Source: Balanoglossus misakiensis (taxonomy: Eukaryota; Animalia; Hemichordata). Taken from it: a stretch of DNA of 64,000 nucleotides. The notes beneath the pieces were generated by a model, which saw only the letters and a list, made by a program, of their open reading frames with translations, did no database searches and was not told the origin of the DNA. Where the stretch lies: assembly GCA_040954595.2 (NCBI GenBank), contig CM082593.2:7786043-7850042 (forward strand), in the 5' to 3' direction. Both the position numbers and the translations under genes were made by a program. Positions 3,301-64,000 of the stretch are shown piece by piece. Position 1 is the stretch's first letter. Every line of letters starts with the position of its first letter.

Positions 3301-6300
3301 TCCACCGATTTGTTGACCACAATCTTTGCACACACCGAGGCCATATTGACGACCACACTTAACAACAAGATAAAAGTAATGAAGAGTGTGATGTAGTATG
3401 ATTTTGTAACTCTGCATGCTATTCTTGCTACAATGTGACTACCAGACCCTAAGCATAAATGGGGAATGCACGGTTGGCAGATCACTGCCATCATTCATAT
3501 GCTCCTCAGGGAATGTGACACAACTTTGATGACAGTCATGTAATCAATAGTCCCCAAGTCAAAATTACCACTGTAAAGGGGGCTACATTTACGGTTGATC
3601 CCTTTGTTATTGAATGAAATTTATATATAATCCCATATTTTTCTTTGTTTGATGTGATCGTATATGAGTGGTTTTCGCGGAGTCATTGCAACTTCGAGCC
3701 GCAGGCGAGAAGTTGTACGCCGGCCTTCACGAAAACCACAAGTGTACAATGACGTTTAACAAAGAAAAATATCATGGGATTATAATATTTATCACATGAA
3801 CAGTCTTCTTATTTTTTTGTTAGGAGAGGCAGGACTAAAAAAAATTCAGTATCTAGCTGAAATATTGGAGCGGCCTCGTTTTTTTACTTAGCAGGATTAT
3901 TTTTCAGTGGCGCAAGGATCTGTAGTCCACACAAGATATGAAAATTAGAAAGCTGTTCATTCATAAAAAACTGGCAAGGCATGGCGTTCAATTGAGCTCA
4001 GTTCGCCCGCAAAGTCATGACGCCGGTTGCATTTTATACGGGGAAATGACGTACTTCATGTACAAGTTTATACAAAATTAAAGCTGCAAGCAGCATTGGC
4101 GGGGCACAAGCGATTCCCATGGTAACCAGCAAATGCCAAGGCTGTATCTGCTGTGGATACCAAGATATAAGAAAGTAGGTCAAAGGTCACCTGAGGTCAC
4201 CCAAAATTTGGGCAAAACATTTTTACACCGTACAGGTCCATGTCCACCAAAAACCAAACCTCTAGCCCTGTTGGTTAGCTTGGAATTAGATACATGTATG
4301 CACATAATTAATGAGGTATTGTGTAAGACTCCATTTATGTGCTCAATCCCCAAAAGCCAGGGCTCTCACTGCTCTGGATGCTGAGATATGGAAAAGTAGA
4401 TCAAAGGTCACCCAAGGTCACCCAAAATTTGGGCATAAAATTTTGACCCCATAGTGGGCCATGTCCGACCAAAACCAGACCTCTAGCCCTATTGGTTAGC
4501 CTGGAATTAGACATGCAGAAAATGATGTATCAGAAATAGGTCAAAAGTCATTGCCAAAATTACCAAAATATTTGTGTCATGTCCTGGCAGCAGTGGTACC
4601 CATGTCCACAAAATTCATGACTGTGGTACCTTTACAAGAGGAGGTTTAATGTAAAATTAGGTTTTTTAAAAATTGCGTCAAGGACACGGTGGTCCCATTG
4701 AGTGATTACACAAGAAAAAGTCTACACCGGAGTACATGGCCATATACAGACAGACAGACAGACACACACACACACATAGCGAGAGATCAATGGGCAAACA
4801 CTGACTGACCCATAAGCTGCCAATGGCATATGTACTGTACATACACTAAATAGAACAGCTGGCCTCTTTAAAACTTAGCCAGTTATGTAAAAATTCAGGA
4901 ATTTGCTGTGTTTATATGAATCACATAGGGCAGTTCCTGCCTAATTAAAACAACTCAATAAAGTACAGTAAAACCTGTCAAAACCGGACCCTGGTAAAAC
5001 CGGACCACTGTCCATACCGAACGATTTTTTCAGTCCCTGCCCACTCCCATAGACGCCCTGTGTTAAAAAACCTCTGCAGACCGGCCACTGTCTACTGTGG
5101 AAACCGGACGGGATTTCGAGCGAAAACCGGACGGAACGACTGTTTGAAGACGGCATCTTTTCAAGTTTCTTTGTTTTTGCTACATTAAAGATATGATGAA
5201 TCACTGTCTTTTGTCTTTGAGTTTTGTTTTGACCAATTTAACAAGCAATCAACGGCGTGGAGCTGTCACTCAAGCAAGGCGTGAACGCATTCTATTGTTC
5301 GACTCGTTTGTCGCATATTTTTGACAAGTGGAGTGTCACCGCAGTAATGAGCTCTGTTGTCGGCTGATCAAACATAACGTTTCCCCGTGTCATTTTTTTT
5401 CGGACGGTCAAAGCTATGAAGGCACATTCAATCAGAGCGATGTATACGAGCGCGTCTGTCCTGGCTAGCAACGGAGTCGTACGATCGTCTGCCGCGCGCG
5501 CTGGGCCGGGCGCGTGCGGTTGTAGATTGCTCCATCACTTCCGCGTTCGGCGGCGCTAGTGCGTTCGCTCGCATATTTTGCGAGTCCAGCTGTAGCTAGG
5601 CCGTTCGTGAGTGTAGTTCTCGTTCACATAAAAAAAAGGAAAAATATTTATTGTGTATTCGTTTAGACCTATGCTAAATTATCCATACACTTTATTGTTC
5701 CATGACGCCCGTGGTCGTACGTGCGTATGTATGTATACGGTCGATGTGTGAAACACGGCCGGATCGGAAAACTTTTGACCACGCCCACCCCTCCAAACCG
5801 GACCACTGTTCAAACCGGACAGATTTCTCAGTCCCCCCAGAGTCCGGTTTTGACAGGTTTTACTGTAAATACACACCACTTTGCAAAGCAATCTGACCAG
5901 TAGTTCTTGAGTTACTGAGTTTTGCCCAAATTCACATTTTTCCAGCTAATTTGCATATTTTGGGCAATGGCAACTTCATTTGAACAAATTCCCATCTACA
6001 GCCCAGCCTGCACCTACACACCAAATATCAAGGTGATACACGCAGCGGTTTTCAAGTTTTTGATGTGGACGGACATACATCCATACATCCATACATACAT
6101 ACAGACGCAACCCATCCCATAAGGTCCCATGGTACATACCAATGGGACCCAAAAACTGGGTCAAAGGTCATGTGAAAATTGCCCCCCAAAATTGTGACAA
6201 GTTCCGGTCATATGATGACTCATATCCATGAAAAGAATTTCTGTGCTGTCAATATTTAGGCTAGAAATTGGAATTTAAAATTTTTCATCAGGTTTCAGAA

Positions 6301-9300
6301 AATCCAATATGGCCGCCATAATGATCAACAAATCACAATGCGCTTCGCAAATTTGATAGACACGGGTTAGGTGACCAAATACCCCAAATCCCGTGACTCG
6401 GCAGTTGCCGGTTCTGGAGAAGAAGATTTTTAAAGTTTTCATGAGTTTTTTCGAAAATTCAATATGGCCACCAGGTCACGTGACTAATTAAATATTCACG
6501 GCCACTGTAGGTCTACTCATTGGCCCCTAGCACCCTACCAAGTTTCAGCCCTGTAGGTGCTGCAGTTTTCCAGATCTACCTGGCCGAAAATCTCGGAAGA
6601 AGAAGTGGATCGAAGAATAAAGAAAAATTCCAACAATACCAATAATTAAACCAATCTAATAAACTAAACTAAACTCCAGTGCCATGTATCCCAACACCAT
6701 TAATATGACAGGATTTTAAAAATAAGTCTAAGAAACTGTTGCATTTGCAGCATCACTGAAGTCAAGTCAGTGCGGTCGGTCAATGTTTCCACAGAATACA
6801 CATTGTCGTGGCGACAGAATCTCAGCCTTGGAACTTACACACACAAATGTAATCGGTTCTCTAACAATTTTACTGCAACTTATTTCCACGTCTTATGCAA
6901 TACAATGACCGTTGAAATATATAGAGTTTCAGTCTTCACGAACTTAACTGGCTCAAAACCATCAAGTCTCACTCGGACCGGACTGAGTTGAGGCGCTCAC
7001 TCGGCGAATCGGTGGAAATAGTTCCAGTTGATGATGTGGAACAGGGGGTATATGGATTTTTCTTCTGTCCTTGTCTACGTCACACAGGTGGAAATATGGG
7101 CCAGTTCATGTGATAAATATACATTTCATTATCATACCAAATATGTGTATTATCCCATTCACAAGCACCATTGCAACACTGAATATCTCAAATAAAAAAG
7201 TACTTACATCTCCAATTGTGTAGGGGTGACCATTTGGACATTCTGCAAGGATAAAACAAAAACATATCAATATATATGAATATTAATACCAGGTTCACAC
7301 ATGGTAAAGTTTGATACACATGGTAAATGCAATGCAGAGTACATGTATTAATCCTTTGAGTCACGTTGTGTCCACACACACAAAGTTTATGTACAGGCAC
7401 TGAGGCTGTAGCCCCATAGACAATGGGTTGCGGAGAGGTATTAATCCTTACACCGGCTCAGGTCTGGCCGAAAACGCCGTCTCAAATCTGAGATGTTTCA
7501 ATAAACTGTTCACACATAATAATTTACGCCAGTATTTCATCTGAGATGTTTCAGAAACATCTTAATGATCCCTGGGTGACCCCATATAAGTCACGTACCT
7601 TACTATATGGTATCAATAACCCCCCCCCCCCCCATCAATAACAACAACCAAACAAACTACAAAAAAGACAAACAAATAAACAAGCAAACAAAAACAAGAT
7701 CAGCATTTTTGAGAAAGTTTAAACAATACATAATATGCATTAAAAACACACAATTGCTGGAAGAAAGCATCTACCCATGTATCTTCACATCCTTGTTTAT
7801 AAAAAACCCATTTTGATGAAAAGGGCTTAAGTTGCTTTACCATCCCACCAAGGGATGATAAAAAAAATCTTATTGCAAGGGTATCTTAAGCATTCTTGTA
7901 GTGGGTTTTGTTTAACTTAATGTTTGTGTCTGAAAGGTAAAAAATGAGCACAGAGTCTGTGGTAAATGAGATATTGGCAAGTCAGTACATTTCAAACTTA
8001 CCATACCACTGGACATTTTCTCTTTCAAGTGCTGCTTTAGCTTCTAATATTAAATCTTCCTGCATAGTTGGAAAATAAGAATTCTGCAGCAAAAAAGACA
8101 AAATAACAACCTCTTCAGGATTTATATTAAAAATCTCCACTAATTAAAACAGGATTAAGTTCATATGCTTCAGTTTATCAGTTGAACTTTCTCCATGATT
8201 AACACAAAATATATGCTGCTGTAACAAAAGTGCATAATTACTCTTAACGCATTCCAAACTAATTTCAAAATTCCACAATCCGAAGATAATACCATATTAG
8301 TGAATGAATAGAAATTGGATTACAAATATTAATGTGACATTAGATTTATGTCTGAAACCCTATATTTTGCACTACACCTTTCCAAACGTGTGTGATCAGT
8401 GTAAAAATCAGCTGAATTTTCGAGAAAAAACACAAATCTGTGGAAAAAAATTGGCTGAATTTTTTAGGAAAACACAAATCTGTGAAAAATTCACCTGATT
8501 TTTTTTACAAATTACACCAATAAACAAAAAAAAATCAGCTGAACATCACCTTCAACCAAAAAATCGCGTCAAGGACACAGTGGTCCCATTGAGGAAAAAG
8601 TCTACACCGGAGTACATGGCCATATACAGACAGACAGACACACATAGCGAGAGATCAATGGGCAAACACTGACTGACCCATAAGCTGCCAATGGCATATT
8701 TACTGTACATATACTAATAGAACAGCTGGCCTCTTTAAAACTTAGCCAGTTATGTAATCATTCAGGAATTTGCTGTGTATATAAATATCACAGGATGGGG
8801 TTCCTGCCTAATTAAACAACTCAATAAAGTAAATACACACCACTTTGTAAAGCAATCTGACCAGTAGATCTTGAGTTACTGAGTTTTGACAAAATTCACA
8901 TTTTTCCAGCTAATTTGCATATTTTTGGCAATGACAACTTCATTTGAACAAACTCCCATCTACAGCCCAGCCTGCATCAGCACACCAAATATCAAGGTGA
9001 TACACGCAGTAGTTTTCAAGTTTTTGATGTGGACGGACATACAGACATCCATCCATCCATCCATACAGACGCAACCGATCCCATAAGGTCCCATGGTACA
9101 TACCAATGGGACCTAAAAATTACTTTTTCCGGAAATTACTTTTTGAGGTGTGAATGAACTTAAAAGACAAATTATGATACAGTTGCATAAAGCCTAAAGG
9201 TAATGGTAACACATACATTGTATGTCTGTTGGAGAAAATCTACGATTAAAAGGAAATTATGAAAATTGATTGGAAATTCTCAAATTGGTTTGGAACTTTT

Positions 9301-18300: not shown

Positions 18301-21300
18301 ACCTACAAGAATTACATTTTGAAATTCTCATACTCCTGGAGGCTGGGAGCTAATCGAGTCCACACTACAAACAACTAATACTGGCAGTTCCCTTACCTGT
18401 TGATAAGGAACGGAAGTTCATACAACGCGTCGCCAGGCAAATTAGTGACAGTATGTTTCTGTACACATATGAATATTTACAAGTAAGTTGTCGCGTGAGA
18501 AATAGAATCTCACACACCAAGGACCTGGGATCAGATTTCTCATACTTATTGGGGATATTTTGTTGAGACAAATTCATGTGAGAAGTCTGAACCGAAGTCC
18601 TCAGTAATTTGAGATTCTATTAATTAATAGTCATGCAGTGACCACAAAGCAGCCACTCAGCAGCTTCCTGACCAATATGTGCATGTTAATAATAGTCACG
18701 CATCAAACATGAAGTGGTCGCGTAGCAGCTTCTTGACCAATATAAATGTGCAGGTTGCATATTGCTATAGTTTTCCTATGGTGAAAAATCTGAACAGTTC
18801 TATCAAAAACTAAAGCGCGGTGTCATATAGCGTTTTCTTTATATCATTTAATAATACTTTTCTTTTGGCACTTTTGTGAAAATTTCAAGAAAATTACAAT
18901 ATTGTAACATTGTTTTCTGCACATTTATATATAAGGCTATGGCTTATACCTTGGTGTGACAGAGCTCAGAATTACATCATGTTTATACGGCTGTTTATTG
19001 CGAGTGATTGTCGTGCTGCATGTATCATGTGCGATAAAGGGTCCTTTTGCACTCTCAGAATCGTCTTTGTGACCTAGTCACTTGACAGCATAACAACATA
19101 GTTCCAAATTTTATTACAACAATAGTTTAACTTGAATAATTCAAATCAGTGGATCTATGATATCACACTAGTTCAGAATATTGGAAGATTCCCCATATAC
19201 AGTCTGTAATATACTGGATACACCCGTATTTTTGATGTAATTTTTTTAATCTTTAAAAGTCACTTGTTTATTACCTGATGCTCTTCTTCATCACATGCTC
19301 TATACACCATTCTCACAAAGTCACTCAGGTAGCGACGCATGAAATCATCTAAATCTTGCGGTTCCATCTGGCTTAGCAGGGTCCGGGAAAGTTCCGACTC
19401 ATCAACCAGTTTTTCCAATGTCATCCTGACAGACTGTCTGGTGGAAGCTACGGAAAAAGAAGCAGGGAGGTTCAAATCTGAATAAGGGGAGTGGGTTAAA
19501 CCCCGGTGCGGAAAGACCGGGGATTCGGATTAACGTGTGTTTGTATAGTTGTTTATTTGGGAGTGGTCGTCGTGCATAATGACTGTGTAATCGATCTCAT
19601 GTACATAGAAAATAATTGAACACTTTACACTTCCACGCGATTGACAACTGTTTGAATGGTGTGGTTAATATTGTTTCCCAGGGACGCTTCTGAAAAGCAC
19701 TGAAACCAGATTTCTCCCAAAATCATCGTTGTTTCAAAAGCTCGTGTACTTTTTCATCAATAACTTTATGTTGTGTGTGTTTATAAAGCCAACTACTGTC
19801 GTTGTGTGGTGTAATTCTTTATGCTTGGACCTGTTTGGGCCGATTTTCATAGAGCCAAGATCGTTGGTGTTGTCTGTTGTCAGTCAAACGGCATTAAGAT
19901 TCGCCACTGATTTGGGGGGTCTTTTATACCCCGCACCGGGGTTTAAGCTCTGTTTTAATTATTGTCTATTAATAATGTCTTGGATTTGGTTGAATGAAAT
20001 TTTAATGATTTCCAATGCAGTGTGGATACACCACTACCTTTATAAATGAATATGTTTCAATTGACTTTTACATGGAATATGGATTTCTATTTTTTTTTTG
20101 GGGGGGGGGGGGGCTATAGAACTACTGTAAATGTCCAGTATCTTTTTGCAAGGGTAACTGTATATGAAAGTTCAAAGCATTAATTCTTTACAGATTTTTG
20201 CGTTAGCACTTCCAAACTTTTATTTTTAAGGGTAGGGATCTACCTAGGTTGAATCCATAGCTTCTAATGCGAACAAACCTTGTCTTCAAAGTTTTTGTAT
20301 CATACGTGACATAACTGCTTCACATATTTAAAGTGGAACGACACCCACAATTTTGGGCTTCAAAGTACAAACCGGGTGTCAAAAACGGCAACGTTCCGAT
20401 GGGTTAATTCACTTTCACTTCCTGCGCAAGCAGAAGACGCACGTTGAAAATACTACAGTGACGTCAGCAACTTACACGTTCGACGTGTCATTTCCAATAA
20501 ACAGACACATTTTGTGCGGATCTGACATGGCGAAATGTCAAGTTCATGATTTTAAAAACATATTCGGAAAATCGACGGGGATAAGTTTCTTTCAAAGGCA
20601 ATGCTCTACGTGTATTGTATTTGTCGATGCGTGCAGACATAGACCCTGCAATGTCCACGATGCCATGCATGTCGACGTTTATGAACAAACCGTAAGGCCT
20701 ATACAAAGTTGTTCTAACTGCCGCTGATAATAATAAACGTACCGTTTTAAATCCTTCCTGCACGTTTTTTGGTACACGTATTTGGGTTTAATTTCCATTT
20801 ATTGACGATCGCATAGTTATCAAATGAAAGCAACTAAAAAGGGCAGTTTTAATACATTTCAAGAGACGAAACGTGCATACAATAACTATAGTATTGGCTT
20901 CCATTATACTATGGACGTACTACACCTGGAGAGCAGGACGATGCACCTACGTTCTTTTCAACTCCATAAAAGGTGACAAAGTATTTTTGTAAGAAAAGTG
21001 GTTCCATAAAAGGTGACAACGAGGGAGAGACAACAAGGGAGGGTATTGTTAACAGCATTGTCTGTTTCACCATAGACCCTAGGGTCTATGGTTTCACTGA
21101 AACCACACCAAGTGTAAGCCTTGACAAACGGGACACATCGGAGATCAGAACTGCATGAACTTTTGTCCTCTGTAAAATTCAGTCGCTTGGTCGTAGAAGG
21201 GAATCTCTGGTTCAAAATTGTAGCCTACTACCCGAGAATATGTTGCCATGCAAACGTCGTCGGTCGCGTGAGTGCAGGCGTGTATAACATGTACATGTAT

Positions 21301-24300
21301 AAGCATAAGCTCGCTCCAACACGTCGGCAGCGGACAACGGTACCACAAGTTGCTGACGTCACTCACTTCCGGGTTCGCGCGGTTTTTGGCTGGCTGTAGC
21401 TCTGTTATGCGTAAGTGAAAGTGAATGAAACCAACGTTTTTCATAGTACTTTTTAATCGCATTTCGCAGAATCGGCTCAAAAACGGATCACAACGTTCCA
21501 CTTTAAAAAATAGCGTCAAGGACACTGTGGTCTCATTTGAGGATTATGCGGAAACAGTGACACACCAGAATAAAAATTACAGGTGACATTGCAAGCAGAT
21601 ATGATCTTACCATATAGATATATGGAATGTAAACAAAATTAACAAGGAACATGCCCAATAAACTGTCATGTGTCATGGCAGTCTTACAAGTGGTGCTAGA
21701 AAAAAAATTGACCAAAAATTGTCTGTACAAACACATATGAGAAGCAACTTCTTTCAGTCAGCCCTGGAACAGACACACAGACAGACAGACAGACACACAC
21801 TGACCTGCCACTGGTAATTACAAATTTAATAGCTGGTGGTCTCTATAACAGCTGGCCTATTAAAGTTATGTAAACATGTCTTAGTTCGGGGTAACAACTC
21901 CTTGTAACTAGTAACTTTAAAAACAACTGGACAATTGGTTTCGGAGATTTGCTAACCAAAAACAAAGAAAGAAACTTATAAAAAAAACTCGCTAAATATT
22001 GAATATTTCTGATATCAGAATTGGATAAAAGTTGCAATCTGGCATGCGGTTTTAAAGAAAAAAAAAATTTGACCAAAAATGGCAAATATTGCTCAAAATT
22101 ATAAATATGCAAATTTTGCAACAATTTAAACAAAACTATGGTTACTCAGACAACCATTAGGAAGCTTCATACTAAATTTCAAAGAAGTAAGCCCATCACT
22201 GTCAGAAATGAAGACTTTTTACCAATAACATGGAAAAATACAAAAAATGCATAAAAAATGGGAAATCGATAATATTAGCTCAAAACATACAGGACTGTAT
22301 GAGGTTGACATAAGGTACATGCAAGCCAATTGTCAAATCAATATGACCAGTGGTTGTCGAGTTTTTGAGTTTTGACCAATTTCACATATTCCCAGCTAAT
22401 TTGCATATTTTTGGCAATGACAACTTCATTTGAACAAACTCCCATCTACAGCCCTTCCTGCATCTACACACCAAATATCGAGGTCATACGCGCTGCGGTT
22501 TTCAAGTTTTTGATGTGGACGGACATACAGACATACAGACATACATGTACATCCATACATACAGACGCAACCGATCAAATAAGGTCCCATTGTACATACC
22601 AATGGGACCTAAAACAAGTGACCTATTGGTCAAAAGAGCTCTGCTGACTTTAACAGTGTAACCTGGGCAATGATATGAATACAGAATACCATAGGTTTTA
22701 ATTTATAACAATTGTATTCTATTAAACAAAACCAAACATAGACATCAATATAGCTGCCAAGCAGCAATAGCGGGCACAAGCCAACATTGCACATAGCACA
22801 TAGCGGTAATCATTACAGGTGTGTGCTTATTCTTACCAAATATAAAGTCAGCAGACTTTTAATTTATGTAGTATTTCGCATTTCCGTCATATTTACATCA
22901 AAGGTCATGTGAGGTCACCAGAAATTTGGGTAATAATTTTGACCCTATACTGGTCCATGTCCCACAAGAACGAAACCTCAACCCCTATTAGTTAGCCTGG
23001 AATTAGGTATGCACATAATTAATGAGTTAAGTAGGTGTCACAGGTGACCTTTAAATTTGGTTTCTTATTTTGGTCCCATCCGTTCTGTACCTACTCTGGG
23101 TGCCGAGTTATGCAGAAGAATGTCAAAGGTCACCAAAATTTGGGCAAGAAATTTTGACCCTATACTTATCCAGGTCCAACAAAAACCAGACCTCTAGCCT
23201 GATTGGTTCGCCAAGAATTAGGTATGCACATAATTGATGAGGTAAAGTGTAAGACTCCATTAGGAGTTCCATCCCTCCAAATACCAAGGCTGTACCTGCT
23301 CTGGATACCGAGATATGGTAAAGTGGGTCAAAGGTCACCTAAGGTCACCCAAAATTTGGGCAAGAAATTTTGACCCTTTACTAATCCAGGTCCAACAAAA
23401 ACCAGACCTCTAGCCTTATTGGTTCGCCTAGAATTAGGTATGCACATAATTAATGAGGTAAAGTGTAAGACTCCATTAGGAGTTCCATCCTTCCAAATAC
23501 CAAGGCTGTACCTGCTCTGGATACAGAGATATGGTAAAGTAGGTCAAAGGTCACCTAAGGTCACCAAAAATTTGGGCAAGAAATTTTGACCCCATACTTG
23601 TCCATGTTCAACAAAAACAAAACCTATAGCCCTATTGGTTAGCCTAGAATTAGGTATGTGCATAATTAATGAGATATGCAGGTGTCACAGGTGACCCCCA
23701 TTTCGGCTTTTAAATTTTAGCCCCAACCCTCAAAACGCCAAGTCTGTACCTGCTCTGTATGCCGAGATATAGGAAAGTAGGTCAAAGGTCATCTGAGGTC
23801 ACCCAAAATTTGGGCAAATTTTTTTGACCCCATAAAATTCTATTTTTAGATCTAATTTGCATATTGATGACCCCATCAAATCCAAATTAACAAAATCAGG
23901 TAGGGACACCATAACATACATTCCTACCAAATTTCAGCTCCATCGTACATGTAGTTAGGAAGAAGATTTTTTACCAAAAAATCTATTTTTAGATCTTATT
24001 TGCATATTTATGACCCCATCAAATCCAAATTAACAAAATCAGGTAGGGACACCATAACACACATTCCTACCAAATTTCAGCTCTATCGTACATGTAGTTA
24101 TGGAGAAAAATATTTTTTACCAAAAATTCTATTTTTAGATCTAATTTGCATATTAATGACCCCATCAAATCCAAATTTACAAAATCAGGTAGGGGCCCCA
24201 TAACACACATTCCTACCAAATTTCAGCTCCATTGTACATGTAGTTGTGGAGAAGAAGATTTTTACAAAAAATTCTATTTTTAGATCTAATTTGCATATTA

Positions 24301-27300
24301 ATGACCCCACCAAGTCCAAATTTACAAAATCAGGTAGGGGCCCCATAACACACATTCCTACCAAATTTCAGCTAAATATGCCAAGTTGTTTTAAAGAAGA
24401 AGATTGAAATACCAAAAGTTGACGGACGACGGACGACAGACGACGGACGACAGACGACGGACGGACACTAATCAACCTACTGCTACAGCTCAGCTGACAC
24501 AAGTGACAGCCGAGCTAAAAAAGACAGTTATACCTTTCATACTCAATGCACTTTCCATTATGTCATTCACATAGTTTTTGATGACACTAGAGAATGGACA
24601 GAGGCACTTGAAGTGGCTGTTGTTGACACCAGTGGAGTTGACCGGAACAGCATCCCTTGGTGTATTCTTGACTGGAGACAGGAAGGATTCATATCTCAAC
24701 ACTGATAAGTTGGGGTTTCTGAGCAAGTCCAGCCACAGTCTGTACACCCAACTGTTAGGAGGCGAGTTTCTGATCAAGTCCAAGTTATCATTTCTGTCCG
24801 AGAAGGCAATAACTTCTGCCAGTAGTGGTGTCACAGTGCCAACCAGACTATGCCAAATGGCTCGCCTGTGAAAAGACATTGACAGTTAAATCTCAAGGTA
24901 GCTTAGGTGATAGTGACACTATCCACTTTGACTTTACTGAGAGAAACACACAGCTGTTACTGTAAAAATAAAAATGCCAGCACACCTGTTATAATCTAAA
25001 AATACATATACCGGTACATGCATGTATGTGAAGCACAAAATGAAACAGTTCTTAATTTGACTTGACTGAAAAATGTTCCATATTATGAAAAAAGAAATTT
25101 ACTTTATGGAAAAGGCTGATTTTAGATTGCTTTTAATACATTCTGTTTAGTTTTGTTGTCATCGTAGTATTCACATATATTTATTTCTGCGATGCTCATT
25201 TCTAATTTGACAGTCATGTAGCTTGACTCAAAATACAATCATGTAAACCATAGTACTGCCACCAACATGAGTATGGCCAATTATTCTGACATCGACAGCC
25301 ACTTGAGCCAGTCCACAATAAAGGATTATCAAAGTGGAAAAAGAAGGATGGTCATCTGATCTGTGCATGTATGACTTTTTGCACTGCACTGTTCTAACTG
25401 GTCAGACAGACCCTGCCAACCAATTCATGTTATATCAAATTAGTAACTTGGAAATGATAAAAAATAATTACTCATTGTTTGCCATTATATACAAGTGGCC
25501 ATACTATGGTCTACGTTGGGTCAAATACATTGTAGCAGTTGTACTTCATGCCTACACTTTGACTTGCTAGCAACTGTGTCCTATGAGACCCATACCTGCA
25601 ACTATGCAACTACAGACCAGAGGACCCCCACCCTTAAAAAAGTTTTCTTACTGTATCATGAAATCACCAAGTAACAAGTTTACCTGAATGTGCCATGTAC
25701 CTGAACCCATTCTCCAGTTACAGCTTCTCTGCTCAGCCAAGTGGAGGCCATGTCACCTGCCCTTTCATCCTTCTCTTTGAGTAGCTGACAGATGCGTTCT
25801 TTCAATACACTTACAAATGTTGTTGTATCTAGGAAAAACATGAACATAACAGACGGTACTTGTACTATTTTGACATACCAATGACATCATTGTAAGTAAT
25901 AAATCAGGCTAATTCATTCCAGTTCAGTGGCTGTGCTAATCATCACTTGATCCTAAACAAGGAATGCATGATTCAAAGTATTCACAGCAACTGGGCTCTG
26001 TCAGGGTGTGGTAGATGCTTACCAGGGAAAGTGTTGAAATTTTCAATAACAAAAAACAAACATAACAGAACTTCAGTTGTCATGATTAAGATCCAAGGAG
26101 TTTCTATTCCCATTCTCCTTCATTTAAGCTCCAACAGGTAGACCTGACATTGTCACATTTTATCCTAAACTGATGTGCGCCCACAAAGACATGAAAGTCT
26201 TGGCAACACTGTGTGCCAAGAATAGCAATGCCATGTCGAAATTTATAAATAGTACAGTGCTGAAAATGGTTTTATAGCACTCCTTTAGTACATGTATGTG
26301 CAGCAAGTTGGTTTATCAAATGACCTATGAGCTTGATGACCCATGATCAAGCACCAGCTGTGAATGTTTAACCCTTTCACCCCAGGTTCACTCTATGGAG
26401 GTCCAACTTTACAATAGAAAAGAGTGGAACAAACCATGATAGTGAAAGGGTTACGACTTACGCCTAAGTTCAAATAATTTCAGGAGCCCCCAAAATGTGA
26501 AACTGAAGCTAAATTGAAGGAATACAATCATGTGCATGAGTTAATGCAACCCCTGTACTTTACCCTGAGAGGAATCAGCCTGTTTGAACAACTCCAACAC
26601 AATTTCAATCCTCTCAGTAGATCTCTGCATCCTGTCCTCATCATCTTCCAGCATAGCAGTAGCAGCGTGAATACAGTTTTTCAGCAGAGCACTAGTGTTG
26701 AGAAGAGCAGCCCTGGTAGGTTTATCTTCCACTTGATTCACTCGTTCACAAACATCTGGACGGACATCAATCATCTCGTCCTTTCTGTCTGTTGTAATGT
26801 CACTCTCAAAGACAACACTGACTTTCTGGTCTTGTAGAGCAGTAATCTGTGGCAGGTTTTCATGTGGAGGTCGAAGTTCATCAATGTGAACAGACAGCCA
26901 TTTCCCACCTGGACACAAGTTAAAATTTTGATAAAACAATGGAGTTTGCCCTTAGGAGGTTGCTAAAATTTAAAAGCAATATTTCATTACTGACAATGAA
27001 TGAAAAAATGCTAAAACGTCATCATTGTTAATGGAACAGACAATTAAAAAGAATTTATGCCACTTCATATGAATTTGCATGCACCACAGCATAAATGAAT
27101 ATGTCATTGTAAAGTGACTGAAAATACAAATCGCATAATGTTATAATTATAAGTAACAAAGCCTAACAACCAGCAGAGTTTTTCTGAAGACTCCATCGTC
27201 AGTAAGTGAACTAGGAAGTGATAGAAGTAAGAATCACTGCACCGAACAAAGAACCCAGTCAGTCACATGCGCATTGATTAAATGAACAAACAATGGCAAC

Positions 27301-30300
27301 CAGTAACTTTCCAATTCCAACAGCCATGGACATGAAAGGCAATCTCTTAAAGAATTAGTCTAACTTCGCCCACAATGTTGAGGCTATGAAGTTGCAACAT
27401 CTCTGGAATTGCAACGCTATGCTTTGTACTGGGAAAAGACTGCCTGAGAGTAAACAAACACCTCGACTTGACTGAAGATGGCAGAAAGAATGTCAAATAA
27501 AGTTTAGATGTGCCACAGATACATTTCAAGCCAACTGGAAACGTGATCAATGAACAGTATGTATTCAATACCAGCAATCTTGAATCCCAGAAAGATGACT
27601 TTACCAGAGAATAGAACTATAATTGGTACAAAAAATAATGCTGCACGAGCCAGAGTGCTAAGAGAATTTGAACCAGCCATAGAAATGTGTGGTAGCAGTG
27701 AAGCCACACAAATGCAGATGGAAGAGCAAAACAAGGGACAGCCAACTACCGGTATATACACACATGACAGTACACAGGCTTAACAGAAAGAGAAAAAATA
27801 GTGTCAAGGACACTGTGGTCCCATTTGAGGATTACATCAGGTATACACCAGAATAATAATCACAGGTGACATTGGCAAGCAGATATGACCTAACTATACA
27901 TAAATATGGAAATGTAAAAAGAAATTAACTATAGGCCAATCAAGTGTCATGGCAATCTTAGAAGCAGTGCTAGAGAAATTGATCTTTGACTAAAAATTGT
28001 CTGTACAAACACATATGAGGTGGTTTCGTTAATCCAAAATCCTGCGTGTTTCTCACATTTCTGACCATAATTACAAAAAGATGATGAGGGATGTGTACAC
28101 CAGTATGCATTGACTTTAGCCACTAGCGATATGCAAATTGGGCTGAGCAAGGCTTACGTAACTTTGCAACATTTACACACAATAAAACCCATTACGAGAG
28201 ACAGCTATAAATGGGAAAAAGGAGAGCACAAAATTGTGTTTCAGAACTTATCAATGCTCCTCCATACATGTCATCAATTATCAAAGTGAAAAATTTAGAC
28301 AAGCTGTTGTAAAATTAACTCAAATAAGGAACACTGAAACAGTGAAGAAGAAACAATCACAAGAATGTCGTCTGTAGAAAACATTGCCCACAGTACCGGT
28401 ATTTACACTAATGAAAACAAGTTAGAAATTAAAGCTGCGAGCAGCATTGTCGGGCCCAAGCGCTGATCTTGAATTATATATGCACAGTATGAATGAGAAG
28501 AAACAGAATTTTTTATCGTATGTTTTATCTCATGACATAACAAGGATGTGTGTATTTTTGCTGCTGAAATAGGGTGAAGTAGGTCAAAGGTCACCTGAGG
28601 TCACCCAACATTTGGGCAATTTTTTTTTACCCATACTGGTCCATGTCCAACAAAAAACAAAATTCTAGCTCTATTGGTTCGCCTGTAATTAGGTATGTGC
28701 ATATTTAATGAGGTCAGCAGGTGTCACAGGTGACTCAAAAATGTGGCTTTACATTTTGGTCCCATCCTACCAAATGCCATGGCTGTATCTGCTCTGGATG
28801 CTGAGATATGCGAAAGTAGGTCAAAGGTCACCAGAGGTCACGCAACATTTGGGCAAAAAATTTTGATCCCATACTGGTCTGTGTCCAACAAAAACCAAAC
28901 CTCTAGCTCTATTGGTTCGCCTGTAATTAGCTATGCACATAATTAATGAGGTCAGCAGAGGTCAAAGGGGTCATGAAAAGAAGCAAAATATTTTGATCAC
29001 ACACTAATCCACATTCATCTAAAACCAAACGTCTAGCCCTATAGGTTAGCCTGGAATTAGATATGCAGAAATAATAACGCGTGATAAGTAGGTCAAAGGT
29101 CATGTGAAAAATCGCCAAAAAATTGTAACATATTTTAGTCACATGACGATTGATATCCATAAAAAGAATTTGTATGCTATCAATTTTTAGACTAGAAAAA
29201 GGAATTTCAATTTTTCACTGCTTTTTACAAAATCCAATATGGCCGCCATAATCTTCGACCAATCACAATGCTCTTTGCAAACTTGATAGACATCAGTGTA
29301 GTGACCATACTCCCCGAATCTTGCGACTCAGTCATCGCCCGTTCTGGAGAAGAAGATTTTTGGAGTTTAACTATGGTTTTTCTAAAATCCAATATGGCCG
29401 CCATAATCTTCGACCAATCACAATGATCTTCGCAAACTTGATAGACATCAGTTAGGTGACCACATACCCCAAACCCCGTGTCTCGGTTATCACTGGTTCT
29501 GGAGAAGAAGATTTTTGAAATTTAAGCCAGATTTCAGAAAAAAATTTGTAGCAAAAAAACTGCAACATTGACAGCAAAATTTCCAATTACAGAAATGATG
29601 GGTAGAAGGTAGTCTACCTGCATGCCAAATTTGAAGTTGATCTGACTTGTAGTTTGTGAGATCTGAGATTTGCATTTTTTCAGAAAATCCAAGATGGCCG
29701 CCAGGTCATGTGACTAATTAAAAATTCAAGGGTTCAATGCACGACTACTCATTGACCTTGACCACTGTAGCAAGTTTCAGAAGTGTACCTGCAGCGGTGT
29801 CTGAGATCTAGAGCGACAAAGAATTGACACAAGAATAAAGAAAGAATTAAAGCTGCAAGCAGCATTGTCCGGGCCCAAGCTCTATTATCTGATCTGATAT
29901 TAGATATGCACATAATTAATGAGTAGAAACATAATGCTGTTTTATCCCATGAAATATCAAGGTTATATCTATGTTTGGTGCTGTTAAAATGTTAAGTAGG
30001 TCAAAGGTCACCCAGAGGTCACCCAACATTTGGGCAGAAAATTTTGACCCATAGTGGTCCATGTCCAACAAAAACCAGACCTCTAGCCCTTTTGGTTAGC
30101 CTAGAATTAGGTATGCACATCATTAATGAGTCAAGCAGGTGTCACAGGTGACCCAAAACTTTGGCTTTTCATTATGGCCCCATACCTCCAAACGCAAAGG
30201 CTGTATCTGCTGTGGATGTCGAGATATGCAAAAGTAGGTCAAAGGTCACCCGAGGTCACCCAACATTTGGGCAAAATATTTTGACCCCATACTGGTCCAT

Positions 30301-33300
30301 GTATAACAAAAACAAAACTTCTAGGTCTATTGGTTCATCTGTAATTAGGTATGTGCATATTTAATGAGGTCAGGAGAGGTCAAAGGGGTCATGAAAAGTA
30401 GCAAAATTTTTGGATCACATACAAATCCACATACATCAAAAACCAAACTTATAGCCCTATTGGTTAGCCTGGAATTAGATATGCAGAAAAATCATGCGTC
30501 AAAAGTAGGTCAAAGGTCATTGCCAAAATTACCAAAATATTTATAGATTATTCTTGGCATATGATGATTCATATCCGTAAAAAGAATTTCTGTGCTATCA
30601 ATTTTTAGGCTAGAAAGGGAATTTTTACTTTTTAATCGTTTTTCACAAAATCCAATATGGCCGCCATAATCTTCGACCAATCACATTCACCTTCGCAAAC
30701 TTGATAGACATCTGTTCAATGACCACACACACCAAATCTTGTGACTCAGTTATCGCCTGTTCTTGAGAAGAAGATTTTTGAAATTTTACTAGGGTTTTTC
30801 GAAAATCCAATATGGCCGCCATAATCTTCGACCAATCACAATGATCTTCGCAAACTTGATAGACCTCAGCTTGGTGACCACATATCCCAAACCGCGTATC
30901 TCGGTTATTGCCGGTTCTGGAGAAGAAGATTTTTGAAATTTTGACCAGATTTCAGAAAAACAACTGTAGCCAAAAAACTGCAACATTGACAGCAAAATAT
31001 CCAATTACAAAAATGATGGGCAGAAGGTACACTACCAACACACCAAATCTGAAGTAAATCTGACTTGTAGTTTCTGAGATCTGAGATTTGCATTTTTTCA
31101 GAAAATCCAATATGGCCGCCATGTCACGTGACTAATTAAAAATTCAAGAGTTCAATGCACAACTACCCATTGACCTTGACCACTGTAGCAAGTTTGAGAA
31201 GTGTACCTGCGGCGGTGTCTGAGATCTAGAGCGACAAAGAAATGACAGAAGAATAAAGAAAGAAAGAAAGACAGATTAAAGCTGCGAGCAGCATTGTCGG
31301 GCCCAAGCGCTGATCTTGAATTATATATGCACAGTATGAATGAGAAGAAACAGAATTTTCTATCGGATGTATTATCTCATGACATAACAAGGATGTGTGT
31401 ATTTTTGCCGCTGAAATAGGGTGAAGTAGGTCAAAGGTCACCTGAAGTCACCCGACATTTGGGCAATTTTTTTGACCCATACTGGTCCATGTCCAACAAA
31501 AACCAAAACTCTAGCTCTATTGGTTCGCCTGTAATTAGGTATGTGCATATTTAATGAGGTCAGCAGGTGTCACAGGTGACCCAAAAATGTGGCTTTAGAT
31601 TTTGGTCCCATCCTACCAAATGCCATGGTTGTATCTGCTCTGGATGCTGAGATATGCGAAAGTAGGTCAAAGGTCACCAGAGGTCACCCAACATTTAGCA
31701 AAAAAATTTGATCCTATACTGGTCCATGTCCAACAAAAACCAAACCCCTAGCTCTATTGGTTCGCCTGTAATTAGCTATGCGCATAATTAATGAGGTCAG
31801 CAGAGGTCAAAGGGGTCATGAAAAGTAGCAAAATATTTTGATCACACACTAATCCACATTCATCAAAAACCAAACGTCTAGCCCTATAGGTTAGCCTGGA
31901 GTTAGATATGCAGAAATAATAACGCGTGATAAGTAGGTCAAAGGTCATGTGAAAAATCGCCAAAAAATTGTAACATATTTTAGTCACATGACGATTGATA
32001 TCCATAAAAAGAATTTGTATGCTATCAATTTTTGGACTAGAAAAAGGAATTTCAATTTTTCACTGCTTTTTACAAAATCCAATATGGCCGCCATAATCTT
32101 CGACCAATCACAATGCTCTTTGCAAACTTGATAGACATCAGTGTAGTGACCATACTCCCCGAATCTTGCGACTTAGTCATCGTCGGTTCTGGAGAAGAAG
32201 ATTTTTGGAGTTTAACTATGGTTTTTCGAAAATCCAATATGGCCGCCATAATCTTCGACCAATCACAATGATCTTCGCAAACTTGATAGACATCAGTTAG
32301 GTGACCACATACCCCAAACCCCGTGTCTTGGTTATCACTGGTTCTGGAGAAGAAGATTTTTGAAATTTAAGCCAGATTTCTGAAAAAAAATTGTAGCAAA
32401 AAAACTGCAACATTGACAGCAAAATTTCCAATTACAAAAATGATGGGTAGAAGGTAGTCTACCTGCATGCCAAATTTGAAGTCGATCTGACTTGTAGTTT
32501 CTGAGATCTGAGATTTGATTTTTTTCAGAAAATCCAATATGGCCGCCAGGTCATGTGACTAATTAATTATTCACAAGTCACTGCACATCTACTCATTGAC
32601 CTTGACCACTGTAGCAAGTTTGAGAAGTGTACCTGCAGTAGTTTCAGAGATCTCGTTGGCCGAAGAATTGACACAAGAATAAAGAAAGAATTAAAGCTGC
32701 AAGCAGCATTGTCCGGGCCCAAGCTCTATTATCTGATCAGATTATTAGATATGCACATAATTAATGAGTAGAAACATAATGCTGTGTTTTATCCCATGAA
32801 ATATCAAGGTTATATCTATGCTTGGTGTTGATATAGTGTTAAGTAGGTCAAAGGTCACCCAGAGGTCACCCACAATTTGGGCAGAAAATTGTGACCCATA
32901 GTGGTCCATGTCCAACAAAAACCAGACCTCTAGCCCTTTTGGTTAGCCCGGAATTAGGTATGCACATAAATAATGAGTTAAGCAGGTGTCAAAGGTGACC
33001 CAAAACTTTGGCTTTTCATTATGGCCCCATACCTCCAAACGCCAAGGTTGTATCTGCTGTGGATGTCGAGATATGCAAAAGTAGGTCAAAGGTCACCCGA
33101 GGTCACCCAACATTTGGGCAAAATATTTTGACCCCATACTGGTCCATGTATAACAAAAACAAAACCTCTAGGTGTATTGGTTCATCATTAATTAGGTATG
33201 CGCATATTTAATGAGGTCACCAGAGGTCAAAGGGGTAATGAAAAGTAGCAACATTTTTTGATCACATACAAATCCACATACATCAAAAACCAAACTTATA

Positions 33301-36300
33301 GCCCTATTGGTAAGCCTGGAATTAGATATGCAGAAAAATGATGCGTCAAAAGTAGGTCAAAGGTCATTGCCAAAATTACCAAAATATTTATAGCTTATTC
33401 TTGTCATATGATGATTCATATCCATAAAAAGAATTTCTGTGCTATCAATTTTTAGGCTAGAAAAGGAATTTTTACTTTTTAATCGTTTTTCACAAAATCC
33501 AATATGGCCGCCATAATCTTCGACCAATCACATTCCCCTTCGCAAACTTGATAGACACCTGTTTAATGACCACACACACCAAATCTTGTGACTCGGTTAT
33601 CGCCCGTTCTTGAGAAGAAGATTTTTGAAGTTTTACTATGGTTTTTCGAAAATCCAATATGGCCGCCATAATCTTCGACCAATCACAATGATCTTCGCAA
33701 ACTTGATAGACATCAGTTAGGTGACCACATACCCCAAACCGCGTGACTCAGTTATCACCGGTTCTGGAGAAGAAGATTTTTGAAATTTAAGCCAGATTTC
33801 AGAAAAAAAATTGTAGCAAAAAAACTGCAACATTTACAGCAAAATATCCAATTACAAAAATGATGGGTAGAAAGTAGACTACCTGCACACCAAATTTGAA
33901 GTCGATCTGACTTGTAGTTTCGGAGATCTGAGATTTGCATTTTTTCAGAAAATCCAATATGGCCGCCAGGTCACGTGACTAATTAAAAATTCACAGGTTC
34001 AATGCACGACTACTCATTGACCTTGACCACTGTAGCAAGTTTCAGAAGTGTACCTGCAGCGGTGTCTGAGATCTAGAGCGACAAAGAATTGACACAAGAA
34101 TAAAGAAAGAATTAAAGCTGCAAGCAGCATTGTCCGGGCCCAAGCTCTATTATCTGATCTGATGCTGATATAGTGTTAAGTAGGTCAAAGGTCACCCGAG
34201 GTCACCCAACATTTGGGCAAAATATTTTGACCCCATACTGGTCCATGTATAACAAAAACAAAACCTCTAGGTCTATTGGTTCATCTGTAATTAGGTATGT
34301 GCATATTTAATGAGGTCAGCAGAGGTCAAAGGGGTCATGAAAAGTAGCAAAATTTTTTGATCACATACAAATCCACATACATCAAAAACCAAAATGATAG
34401 CCTTAAAGGTTAGCCTGGAATTAGATATGCAGAAAAATGATGCGTCAAAAGTAGGTCAAAGGTCATTGCCAAAATTACCAAAATATGTATAGCTTATTCT
34501 TGTTATATGATGATTCATATCCATAAAAAGAATTTCTGTGCTATCAATTTATAGGCTAGAAAGGGACTTTTTACTTTTTAATCGTTTTTCACAAAATCCA
34601 ATATGGCCGCCATAATCTTCGACCAATCACATTCCTCTTCGCAAACTTGATAGACATCTGTTTATTGACCACACACACTAAATCTTGTGACTCAGTTATC
34701 GCCGGTTCTTGAGTAGAAGATTTTTGAAATTTTACTAGGGTTTTTCGAAAATCCAATATGGCCGCCATAATCTTCGACCAATCACAATGATCTTCGCAAA
34801 CTTGATAGACCTCAGTTTGGTGACCACATACCCCAAACCGCGTGACTCGGTTATCGTCGGTTCTGGAGAAGAAGATTTTTGAAATTTTGACCAGATTTCA
34901 GAAAAACAACTGTAGCAAAAAAACTGCAACATTGACAGCAAAATATCCAATTACAAAAATGATGGGCAGAAGGTACACTACCCGCACACCAAATCTGAAG
35001 TAAATCTGACTTGTAGTTTCTGAGATCTGAGATTTGCATTTTTTCAGAAAATCCAATATGGCCGCCATGTCACGTGACTAATTAAAAATTCAAGAGTTCA
35101 ATGCACGACTACCCATTGACCTTGACCACTGTAGCAAGTTTTAGAAGTGTACCTGCAGCGGTGTCTGAGATCTAGAGCGACAAAGAAATGACACAAGAAA
35201 AAAGAAAGAAAGACAGAAAAACCCCAACGAAACCAATAGGGCCCAAGCGCTGGTATGCGCTTGGGCCCTAAAGAAGAAAGAAAAACCCCAACGAAACCAA
35301 TAGGGCCCAAGCGCTGGTATGCGCTTGGGCCCTAAAGAAAAATTCCAACGAAACCAATAGGGCCCAAGCGCTTGCTTGCGCTTGGGCCCTAAAGAAGAAA
35401 GAAGGAAAGACAGAAAAACCCCAACGAAACCAATAGGGCCCAAGCGCTTGCTTGCGCTTGGGCCCTAAAAAGGAACAGAGATTGCTTATAAGCAACCACT
35501 AGACTAATCCAATGACAGAAGATGTATGCACACTCATACCGGTACATGTATATGTACAGTTCTTGTACCACATCATTTCTTCAACATCTCTGAAGTGGAT
35601 AAAAAACTCACCTTGTAATCCATCAAAACAGCCTCCAGCGACTCTGGGAAGTTGAATAATGAACACTACATGAGCAGTCTGCCATTCTTCTTTCAATGTT
35701 TGCTTTACAGCCTGTGATCTCTCATCTTGGACAATGTACCTGGAGCATGCGATCAGGTTGGTGTTCTCATTGCCAGAGTCACACTGAACTAACAGAAGCT
35801 TCTCGACCTGAGCAGGGTTGGATACATGGAAAAATTCTCTACAGGAAAAGATACATAAAGGTATTTATTGCATATGTACTGCAGATTATTACTTTGGTAT
35901 TGCCTATCATTACTGTGATAATGAACAAAAAATAGTCCCTTGGTATATGAACTATTGACAAGCAAACATATTACACTTGCTCAAGGTGACAGGGTTCACG
36001 TACTGTATCCTGTCTTTTTGAATAGTTTTTCATTTAAGATCTTCCAACCATGATATTACTTGTATTACTAATAACAACATATTGAAATGTGCTCATTATA
36101 AGTGCACATAAACCTGAACACTTGGCGGTTCCCAATTTCAAAAACTATACATTTACAGTATCGCCACTGTTCGATGGCAAATAAAGACAGAGGGCTGCAG
36201 CTTTATGATCCTGCCAAGCAATGGCTATTTACCTGACTTTCCTGGTGAACTGTTGTTCGGTTTGGAACTCCTGCAAGGACACGCTGTTCTTCAACAGGAC

Positions 36301-62716: not shown

Positions 62717-63020
62717 ACTGTGATTGTTCTTCAAACAAAATTTACAGAGCCTTTCATCTGGGGGAATATTTCCGTGGCGACCTTTCTCGATTTCCAGGGC
62801 ATGTGAAGAGCAGCGGAATCTGGATAAAGCATTTCTGAATTTAAGAATATGGACACTACTGAGATATGCTTCTGGTTCGAGCATTGATTTGAATGTGTGA
62901 TACGTGTGTAACTTTGGAGATGAATGTATTCCTTCATGCCAGATCTGCCTGGCGCAATCTTTAAGTCTCTGTGTAAAGACAGATAAAAACAGACTTGTGG
63001 AACCAACACCCAGGTTCAAC
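62717..63020 (-). mobile_element. Non-LTR retrotransposon ORF2 C-terminal fragment
   Basis: KLHTYHTFKS...EAYL...RNALSRFRCSSHALEIEKGRH...ERLCKFC, the typical post-RT C-terminal region of LINE ORF2; clade not determinable by eye. Confidence 0.8.
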
Positions 63021-64000
63021 CATATGTAGGGCTCACTTCACGGTAATGATCACTGTAAGCGATTACCCAGCAAAAATCTACAGGGGGTAGGGTCGTTGAA
63101 TCCGATTGACATAGTTTGCACTGCAATGTGAGGACAAAAGAGGTACTTATATGGAAATCACACACGACACACATATGATGTAATGTTGAACACTTTGGTA
63201 TATTATCATAAATCTACCAACAATAAAGTGCACTCATGAACTTTACAAACTCTGAAAATCAACACTTATTTGTATTGAAAAAGATACAAATGTCCCCAGT
63301 GTACGATATGCTGTGAAATATCGCGAAGTCAACAGCTGTGACAGTTCCACTGGTACACAGTCCGACAAACGCAGTTGTACTTCAGTCAGGTTTCCACACG
63401 TAGCGGCATTCACATCAGGCACACAGCAAACCTTGGCAGAGGATTCCGGTGTCCGCGAGCCCGCATAACACAAAGGCAATTCTGTATGGCCAACACACAG
63501 CAGTCTATGGCTTCTCGAAATTACTGAATAATTCCTCTTCAGAATCAATGTGTTCTATACGCTGGAAATACTGAACCATCTCAGCACTCGGCGAGTGTCC
63601 TGAACTGTTGTATCACTCAATAACTCTAACACGAACGGCTATATAAACTGAGACCCGTAACGTTCTGTCTCAGTGACTGTCAAAAGTTTAGCATGAAGCC
63701 AAAGTTCCAACTACGAGAATTCCCTCACCGTGACTCTATCATGAGCATGGATCGCCTCCACACGAACAAGTCTCACCGTAAAAGATCGACAATGTCTCTG
63801 CACCCAGTGACGGCTGTTGACAATAGTTCCGTCGATAAATATACGTGATCACAGCTGGAGTCGCTGTTAGTATTACTAACAGTACAGCAGCTCCCTCGGT
63901 CGGCCACGTGATATTTCCTACCTCAGAGTCAGTTCGATGTAATACCAAAAGTCAGCTCTGAATCCTCGCTAAACTCAGTCCGCCAGATCGCTGAATGTGT

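What the first reader, a model, noticed from the sequence alone, without database searches (positions are those of the whole stretch)
28429..35470. Self-nesting 'matryoshka' HINE cluster: five bodies, then a stack of four terminal hairpins
Seen: five element bodies lie head to tail. The first four each break off in the (GAAA)n tract that precedes the terminal hairpin, and all hairpins (tagggcccaagcgc..gcgcttgggcccta, each preceded by a GAAA remnant plus ccaacgaaaccaa) are piled at 35237-35467. A plain tandem or rolling-circle array should give body+hairpin repeated. Body 3 has a distinct end variant (aattattcac...tggccgaa) shared with the solo copy at ~6490-6640. That solo copy's tail reads gaaaaattccaac, which is the prefix of the third hairpin, as nesting order predicts. 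Known: Helentron/HINE elements insert at TT sites without a TSD. Inference: the element repeatedly inserts into its own TT-rich microsatellite, building satellite-like DNA by recursive nesting. One hairpin is unaccounted for.
Basis: partly seen in the sequence, partly recalled or inferred. Interest (0 to 1): 0.8.

Follow-up and report, generated by a model that had tools for sequence, protein, structure and literature searches.

The report
Transposons nested behind their own heads
Five small non-coding repeats sit end to end inside an intron with four front-end hairpins piled after them, likely because these are rolling-circle transposons whose new copies landed in a T-rich repeat that each earlier copy carries; self-insertion of this kind was already proposed for related fungal elements, and which head belongs to which body is not settled here.

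Summary
Observation largely confirmed: five 1.1-1.4-kb bodies (28429-35236), then four perfect 14-bp hairpins (35237-35467), each with a different GAAA remnant, in an intron of an RNF213-like gene. The ends match HINE/Helitron2 read on the minus strand: the big hairpin is the 5' head, followed by a (TTTC)n repeat. All four internal junctions fall in that repeat at T|T. Contigs from public runs (one sample) show single-headed copies and further stacked-head junctions, but none bridges this locus. Best reading (0.7): a nest built by self-insertion, with one body head-less through composite mobilisation or recombination. The 'solo' copy has no hairpin and shares only 9 of 19 diagnostic sites with body 3. 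A second pairing (body1-head4, body2-head3) fits as well, and body 4 is a mosaic. A second HINE family in the window also has surplus 3' ends. Multiple 5' termini by self-insertion are in print for Fusarium Helitron2 (PMC5148889). The scan noted such nests before: 7 other pieces of this genome and 2 other genomes (unchecked AI notes). New variant of a known kind; interest 0.4.

The parts
28429..29846 (-). Body 1 (type A): 3' end of the element at 28429 (T-run, 5-bp palindrome, 3' subTIR at 28452), breaks in the microsatellite at 29846
29847..31275 (-). Body 2 (type B), breaks after the GACAG motif of the microsatellite
31276..32690 (-). Body 3 (type A, 96% like body 1) with a distinct ~100-bp segment near its break
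32691..34111 (-). Body 4: mosaic, B state at 119 of 125 informative sites in columns 1-930, A state at 16 of 25 beyond
34112..35271 (-). Body 5 (type B, ~310-bp internal deletion) contiguous with its full microsatellite and head 1 (hairpin 35237-35270, loop TGGTAT): the innermost, only complete element
35272..35335 (-). Head 2: 18-nt microsatellite/spacer remnant, CCCC spacer, hairpin 35301-35334, loop TGGTAT
35336..35392 (-). Head 3: 11-nt remnant, TTCC spacer, hairpin 35358-35391, loop TTGCTT
35393..35468 (-). Head 4: 30-nt remnant with GACAG motif, hairpin 35434-35467, loop TTGCTT; outer boundary in an A-run
29222..29525 (.). Internal 155-bp tandem repeat, two copies, present in every body (also 30638, 32067, 33485, 34584)
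4078..6640 (-). Diverged, interrupted copy of the same family (4078-4573 and 6159-6640); TTCC spacer present, hairpin absent
26562..35846 (-). Host context: RNF213-like coding segments at 26562-26933 and 35523-35846 flank the array, which lies in the intron between them

Best explanation
The 7-kb block holds five non-coding repeat bodies followed by four head hairpins, and is likely a nest of HINE/Helitron2-type rolling-circle transposons built by copies inserting into the T-rich repeat just behind an earlier copy's 5' hairpin. Shown: on the minus strand each element reads 5' hairpin, (TTTC)n repeat, body with internal repeats, 3' subTIR, short palindrome, T-run. All four internal junctions and both outer edges fall in T-runs, and the four junctions fall within the ~40-nt repeat zone. 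Inferred: a transposase from an unseen autonomous Helentron inserted each new copy at T|T in the same orientation. This split a resident copy into head and body, so bodies line up on one side and heads on the other, last in first out. Inferred, less sure: the missing fifth head reflects a unit that arrived or arose with two bodies and one head. One way is copying from an outer 3' end to an inner head. The other is recombination between A-B pairs, which would also make the mosaic body 4. The number of independent insertions is two to four, and the head-body pairing is unresolved.
For: Junction positions and boundaries. The repeat zone holds 18 of 260 TT/AA steps of the intact inner element: 0.069 per random TT insertion, 2.3e-5 for four (the locus was picked for this pattern and junctions may be inherited, so this is an upper bound on the evidence). 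The four heads differ in remnant length (head 1 full; then 18, 11, 30 nt) and in spacer/loop combination, unlike copies of one tandem unit. 45 of 49 head columns are invariant while bodies differ by 4-15%. In coded runs X1/X2, 3 of 16 listed pieces (620, 1832, 581 nt; 854 more not shown) cover one spacer plus hairpin and run on 466-1670 nt off the stack, so single-headed copies exist. Joints 34109-34111>35334 and 34111>35391 (depths 374-4000) are the un-nested form, microsatellite running straight into a head remnant (15 joints shown, 43 not). Stacked-head junctions occur at depths 61 and 84.5, and as loose ends with remnants unlike those at this locus. A second HINE family in the window has three stacked 3' ends, one body and one head at 51668-53235, with no remainder nearby; 9 3' ends against 6 heads overall. 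Literature: T|T insertion without TSD (PMC4067079, PMC11417382); TTTC and TCTT listed among Helitron2 target tetranucleotides (PMC3627910); self-insertion model for multiple 5' termini (PMC5148889).
Against: Five bodies, four heads. Three junctions (1>2, 3>4, 4>5) are identical over at least 29 nt of body end and 36 nt of next start, always A-type end into B-type start; shared ancestry explains that as well as a hot spot. Head loops follow neighbours, not body type: b2 and b5 are both type B but get different loops under either pairing. A loose end shows head 4's remnant directly after a B-type end in another copy, so it is nearly a whole microsatellite and, under inside-out pairing, body 2 would have carried two GACAG motifs. 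A loose end behind 35271 reads as the element's own start, and a joint 35335>34110 has depth 714, so plain head-to-tail junctions also exist in this genome. No listed contig bridges the locus to its flanks. The runs are one sample and may be the source of the window. No autonomous partner was seen; no genome was held.
Confidence: 0.7

Rival explanations
1. Few insertions, much recombination: one B-in-A nest was copied as a pair, two pairs recombined to give the mosaic body 4 and an extra head-less body, and one such unit then inserted into body 2. The pairing would be body1-head4, body2-head3, body3 or 4-head2, body5-head1. This is still self-insertion, but only two deep.
For: A-B-A-B alternation; three identical A-to-B junctions; body 4 is B-left and A-like right. 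Heads 2 and 4 begin with the same 11 nt, as expected for the same cut in an A-type repeat. Heads pair by loop like two dimers. Body 1 and head 4 are the two outer edges, and this pairing gives one GACAG motif per repeat.
Against: Body 4's right part shares 0 of 6 alleles private to body 1 and 1 of 5 private to body 3, and has 4 private ones, so it is not a copy of either local A body. Heads 1/3 and 2/4 differ in loop, spacer and a 12-nt indel, a lot for descent from one dimer. The exact un-nested form of an A-type cut plus head-3 remnant exists in X2 (joint 34109>35334, depth 788, shorter side only 21 nt).
Confidence: 0.2
2. No nesting: bodies and heads were amplified separately by local tandem duplication or slippage, or head-less one-ended rolling-circle products were concatenated in front of a natively multi-headed element.
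For: Adjacent heads share loops. Helitron2-type elements can be 5'-truncated with 3' surplus (PMC3627910, section 8). Elements with several 5' termini transpose as units in Fusarium (PMC5148889, section 10).
Against: Four distinct head haplotypes and remnant lengths; bodies 4-15% apart with intact termini. All breaks fall in the same 40-nt zone at A|A, whereas truncation should be scattered. Single-headed copies exist. Neutral decay after duplication would leave the head cores unchanged with probability 0.03-0.08 (weak).
Confidence: 0.08
3. Mis-assembly of a high-copy repeat.
For: The family is very abundant (6747 X1 contigs laid on 1761 bases), and no listed contig spans the stretch or joins it to its flank.
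Against: No two bodies are more than 96.3% alike and all four heads differ, so this is not a collapsed or expanded copy of one unit. A hairpin-remnant-hairpin junction is bridged by an 89-nt contig in X2 (35282-35372, 4 other letters, 3 gaps). The host gene's coding segments continue on the same strand on both sides.
Confidence: 0.04

Closest known systems
HINE / DINE-1 non-autonomous Helentrons (Thomas et al. 2014, PMC4067079, passages; oyster Cg_HINE, PMC7492417, part 1 of 7 read)
   Same: 5' subTIR with nearby inverted repeat forming a hairpin, microsatellite behind it, central tandem repeats, 3' subTIR, short 3' palindrome, T-run, T|T insertion, no coding capacity.
   Different: The passages read describe dispersed single elements and head-to-tail tandem copies, not bodies and heads stacked apart. 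No autonomous partner was identified here.
FoHeli (Helitron2) with multiple 5' termini in Fusarium oxysporum (Chellapan et al. 2016, PMC5148889; sections 9, 10 and passages of 16)
   Same: Stacked short 5' ends (31-85 nt there, 57-76 nt here), explained by self-insertion.
   Different: There several 5' ends go with one 3' end and the nested intermediate was mostly inferred (one nested example). Here the bodies are still in place, 3' ends outnumber heads, and the landing zone is the element's own microsatellite.
Maize Helitrons with multiple termini (PMC3288121, passages)
   Same: Nested Helitrons proposed as intermediates; composites with surplus 3' ends (28.7% of helA with multiple terminal structures).
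   Different: Helitron1 type (TC...CTAG ends), no self-carried microsatellite target described.
Helitron2 (Bao and Jurka 2013, PMC3627910; passages and section 8)
   Same: 5' hairpin including the ATIR, 3' ATIR 20-30 bp from the end, T-rich targets incl. TTTC/TCTT, 3' overabundance.
   Different: Their 3' surplus comes from scattered 5' truncation with long TSDs; here breaks are confined to the microsatellite and no long TSD is seen.
Lepidopteran Helitron-like elements that disrupt (GAAA)n microsatellites (Coates et al. 2010; title only, in the reference list of PMC4067079)
   Same: GAAA repeat as landing site.
   Different: Paper not read; whether self-insertion is described there is unknown to me.

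Membership tests
HINE / Helitron2 non-autonomous element | 5' subTIR/ATIR within a few bases of the 5' end, forming a hairpin with a nearby inverted repeat | tested here: met
   GGGCCCAAGC begins 3 nt from the inferred 5' end (Thomas: 2-4; Bao: 0-2); 14-bp stem, 6-nt loop; z -5.75 to -7.25 for three heads
HINE / Helitron2 non-autonomous element | 3' subTIR/ATIR, inverted, about 20-30 bp from the 3' end | tested here: met
   10-12-bp match 23-24 nt from the end in 5 of 5 bodies
HINE / Helitron2 non-autonomous element | Short 3' palindrome or stem-loop followed by Ts | tested here: inconclusive
   5-bp inverted arms with a 2-nt spacer and a T-run in 5 of 5, but folding is no better than shuffles (z 1.15, 1.29)
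HINE / DINE-1 | Microsatellite behind the 5' hairpin and central tandem repeats | tested here: met
   (TTTC)n tract; 155-bp repeat twice in each of 5 bodies
HINE / Helitron2 non-autonomous element | Insertion between T and T | tested here: met
   All four internal junctions and both outer edges lie in A-runs on the plus strand; boundary supported by a loose end reading into the element start behind 35271
HINE / Helitron2 non-autonomous element | No target-site duplication | tested here: inconclusive
   Longest possible duplication 3-4 nt for all 6 pairings tried and 3 nt for the whole array, inside low-complexity sequence; no empty allele available
HINE / Helitron2 non-autonomous element | No coding capacity | tested here: met
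   Longest stop-to-stop frames starting within the array 95-107 aa, from repeats; these were not searched against protein families
Helentron | Autonomous partner with RepHel (and endonuclease) sharing the termini | not testable with these tools
   No genome held; no long ORF of that kind in the window
Head-to-tail rolling-circle tandem array | Complete units (head plus body) repeated | tested here: not met
   Heads absent from all four internal junctions; such junctions do exist elsewhere in the runs
Strict last-in-first-out nest | Equal numbers of heads and bodies with haplotypes paired inside-out | tested here: inconclusive
   5 bodies, 4 heads; two pairings fit; loops follow neighbours

The most novel reading that the evidence does not exclude
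These HINE families carry their own preferred landing site, so they nest recursively in one orientation and can grow satellite-like arrays without unequal crossing-over. Nests are then re-mobilised as units with more 3' ends than heads (5 vs 4 in family 1; 3 vs 1 at 51668-53235 in family 2). That would be a genomic record that Helitron2/Helentron copying runs from an outer 3' end and stops at the first head it meets, opposite to the polarity shown for Helitron1.
Probability: 0.3. Interest if true: 0.7.

Novelty: new variant of a known kind. Interest (0 to 1): 0.4.

Why it matters
Target choice and replication polarity of Helitron2/Helentron elements have not been shown experimentally in the papers I read. 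A nest with bodies and heads still in place is the intermediate that was proposed for elements with multiple termini, and it suggests a route to repeat arrays by self-insertion. Counting heads against 3' ends across such nests would test polarity. This locus alone is a small, unbalanced example with ambiguous pairing, and no effect on the host gene was tested.

Tried and rejected
Whole-genome census of solo copies: no genome is held. Exact search for the hairpin in metagenome contigs: 0 matches. Laying contigs: 35480-35691 has no cover in the runs laid and no listed piece spans either stretch; a filter drops records, so this proves nothing. Joints from body 5's microsatellite were skipped by the tool as repeats (35191-35223; 35130-35223), so B-end/head links could not be tested. 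Summed depths are not copy numbers, and I did not use them to estimate how common stacks are. Body 4 as a local crossover product of body 1 or 3: rejected (0 of 6 and 1 of 5 private alleles). The 6446-6640 copy as proof of body3-head3 pairing: rejected as weak. Joint 34102>35274 as a link of an A-type end to head 2: not used, since a loose end at 35274 shows a B-like end. A motif hit at 13667 on the other strand is not this family. Earlier-finding look-ups by sequence and by nearness gave nothing. Literature: 8 searches found no paper describing an n-body/n-head Helentron nest; subscription papers (Coates 2010, Xiong 2016, Thomas and Pritham 2015) were seen as titles only and no supplements were read (FoHeli Table S6 and Figure S11 may show such cases).
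Full report
Observation. The block 28429-35468 holds five bodies starting at 28429, 29847, 31276, 32691 and 34112 and four hairpins at 35237-35467. Bodies are 1418, 1429, 1415, 1421 and about 1110 nt long. Bodies 1 and 3 are 96.0% alike (type A), 2 and 5 are 96.3% alike (type B), and the types are 85-88% alike. Body 4 has the B state at 119 of 125 informative sites in columns 1-930 and the A state at 16 of 25 beyond. Body 3 differs from all others at 17-19 of 100 sites in columns 1301-1401. Each hairpin has a perfect 14-bp stem; the three folded have z of -5.75 to -7.25. The four head units differ: head 1 carries the full repeat, and heads 2-4 carry remnants of 18, 11 and 30 nt. Spacers are CCCC, CCCC, TTCC, CCCC; loops are TGGTAT twice, then TTGCTT twice.

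Context. An exon peptide hits RNF213-like proteins, best named hit Saccoglossus kowalevskii at 88% (only proteins of 140-2000 aa searched), so the host is likely a hemichordate or similar marine invertebrate (inference). All 121 held proteins searched against the window give 20 merged segments, all on the minus strand, with 26562-26933 and 35523-35846 flanking the array. The array is intronic.

What the element is. Read on the minus strand it has a 5' hairpin containing the subTIR, a (TTTC)n repeat, a body with a twice-repeated 155-bp unit, an inverted subTIR 23-24 nt from the 3' end, a 5-bp palindrome and a T-run. This is the DINE-1/HINE layout in PMC4067079 (passages) and the Helitron2 layout in PMC3627910 (passages). 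The 3' palindrome does not fold better than shuffles, and no autonomous partner could be sought.

Evidence for nesting. All four internal junctions lie in the repeat behind the head, at A|A on the plus strand, as do both outer edges. That zone has 18 of 260 TT/AA steps in the intact inner element; four independent random hits would have probability 2.3e-5, two about 0.005 (my arithmetic), before allowing for how the locus was chosen. Three coded runs hold the sequence; they are one sample and may be the window's source. Laying them on 34040-35800 gave joints from the end of body 4 straight into the remnants of heads 3 and 4 (34109-34111>35334; 34111>35391; depths 374-4000), which is the un-nested form (15 of 58 joints shown; shorter sides 18-30 nt). 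Laying X1 and X2 on the head stack showed 3 of 16 listed pieces (620, 1832, 581 nt) leaving after a single hairpin, so copies are not natively multi-headed. It also showed an 89-nt contig bridging hairpin-remnant-hairpin at depth 61, a back-joint 35389>35338 at depth 84.5, and loose ends at 35274 and 35396 that put other remnant lengths behind a hairpin (854 pieces and 34 loose ends not shown). Stacked heads thus exist in sequence data other than this assembly, in more than one form.

Evidence that limits it. No listed contig bridges this locus. Plain head-to-start junctions also exist (loose end behind 35271; joint 35335>34110, depth 714). The TTCC spacer follows a body-4-like end and a different end type, so it is not specific to body 3. 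Two pairings fit. P2 (b1-head4, b2-head3, b3 or b4-head2) gives one motif each, explains why heads 2 and 4 start with the same 11 nt, and matches the loop pairs. Against P2, body 4's right part is not a copy of body 1 or 3 (0 of 6 and 1 of 5 private alleles), and the exact P1 form of an A-type cut plus head-3 remnant is seen in X2. Under both pairings the two B bodies 2 and 5 carry different loops, so loops are not subtype markers; conversion between neighbouring heads or a change of active head variant over time would explain this (inference).

The missing head. Three junctions are identical and always A-end into B-start, so one or more may be inherited. A unit with two bodies and one head arises if copying runs between an outer 3' end and an inner head. 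With a 3' origin, as inferred for Chlamydomonas Helitron2-type elements (PMC3627910, section 8), this needs only normal termination. With the Helitron1 polarity shown for Helraiser (PMC4778049, passages) it needs 3' bypass. Recombination between A-B pairs is the other route. A second HINE family in the window shows the same imbalance: three 3' ends 66 bp apart at 51668-51872, each joined at an A-run that the element itself carries 66 bp in. The two extra units differ from the third by 9 and 5 of 66 nt, while the third differs from two other copies by 1-2; there is one body, one head and no remainder nearby. That family has 9 3' ends and 6 heads in the window. Tandem duplication of the end is not excluded there.

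Comparison with the literature. PMC5148889 (passages and sections 9, 10) reports FoHelis with repeated 5' ends of 31-85 nt and proposes self-insertion. PMC3288121 (passages) proposes nested Helitrons as the source of multiple termini in maize. PMC7492417 (part 1 of 7) and PMC12001565 (passages) describe HINE central repeats and Helitron-derived tandem arrays. PMC11417382 (passages) gives T-T insertion for HLE2 and an element with two alternative left ends. PMC10288648 (passages) added nothing on this point. Eight searches found no description of bodies and heads stacked apart; the library lacks most subscription papers and I read no supplements. Earlier notes of this scan describe such nests on 7 other pieces of this genome (8 of 16 fits shown) and in 2 other genomes. 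I could not check them and do not count them as support; two gave the lead to PMC3627910.

Verdict. A real structure, most likely a self-insertion nest of a HINE family, two to four insertions deep, with unresolved pairing. The mechanism is known in outline; the preserved nest with a self-carried microsatellite target and 3' surplus is a new variant. Interest 0.4.

Noticed in passing
window 51668-53235: A second HINE-like family copy with three stacked 3' ends (66 bp each), one body and one head; the two extra ends differ from the third by 5-9 of 66 nt.
   Followed up: partly
window 4078-61106: All 9 3' ends and 6 heads of family 2 and all family-1 starts lie in the same orientation, 5' to 3' on the strand of the host gene. 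Both families carry AATAAA on the plus strand, so selection against the opposite orientation is a possible cause (inference).
   Followed up: no
window 6620-6650: The diverged family-1 copy keeps the spacer up to CCAATA and then lacks the whole hairpin, as a clean loss at the base of the stem would give.
   Followed up: no
window 22755-24520: A related element: family-1-like 3' end and 216-bp repeats, then 146-bp repeats x3.7, a GACG-type microsatellite and a different hairpin; possibly chimeric or nested.
   Followed up: no
window 12062-57002, minus strand: RNF213-like gene in at least 20 coding segments, best named hit Saccoglossus kowalevskii 88% for one exon.
   Followed up: partly
window 20325-21507 and 50191-51386: Two inverted copies (94% alike, 1.2 kb) of another repeat with a central palindrome; each lies near a family-2 3' end.
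   Followed up: no
window 59302-60684: Insertion inside a family-2 copy with a 600-bp duplication and 32-bp perfect palindromes at 59833-59928.
   Followed up: no
window 62621-63037, minus strand: A 138-aa frame that resembles the C-terminal end of a LINE ORF2 (recalled resemblance, not searched).
   Followed up: no
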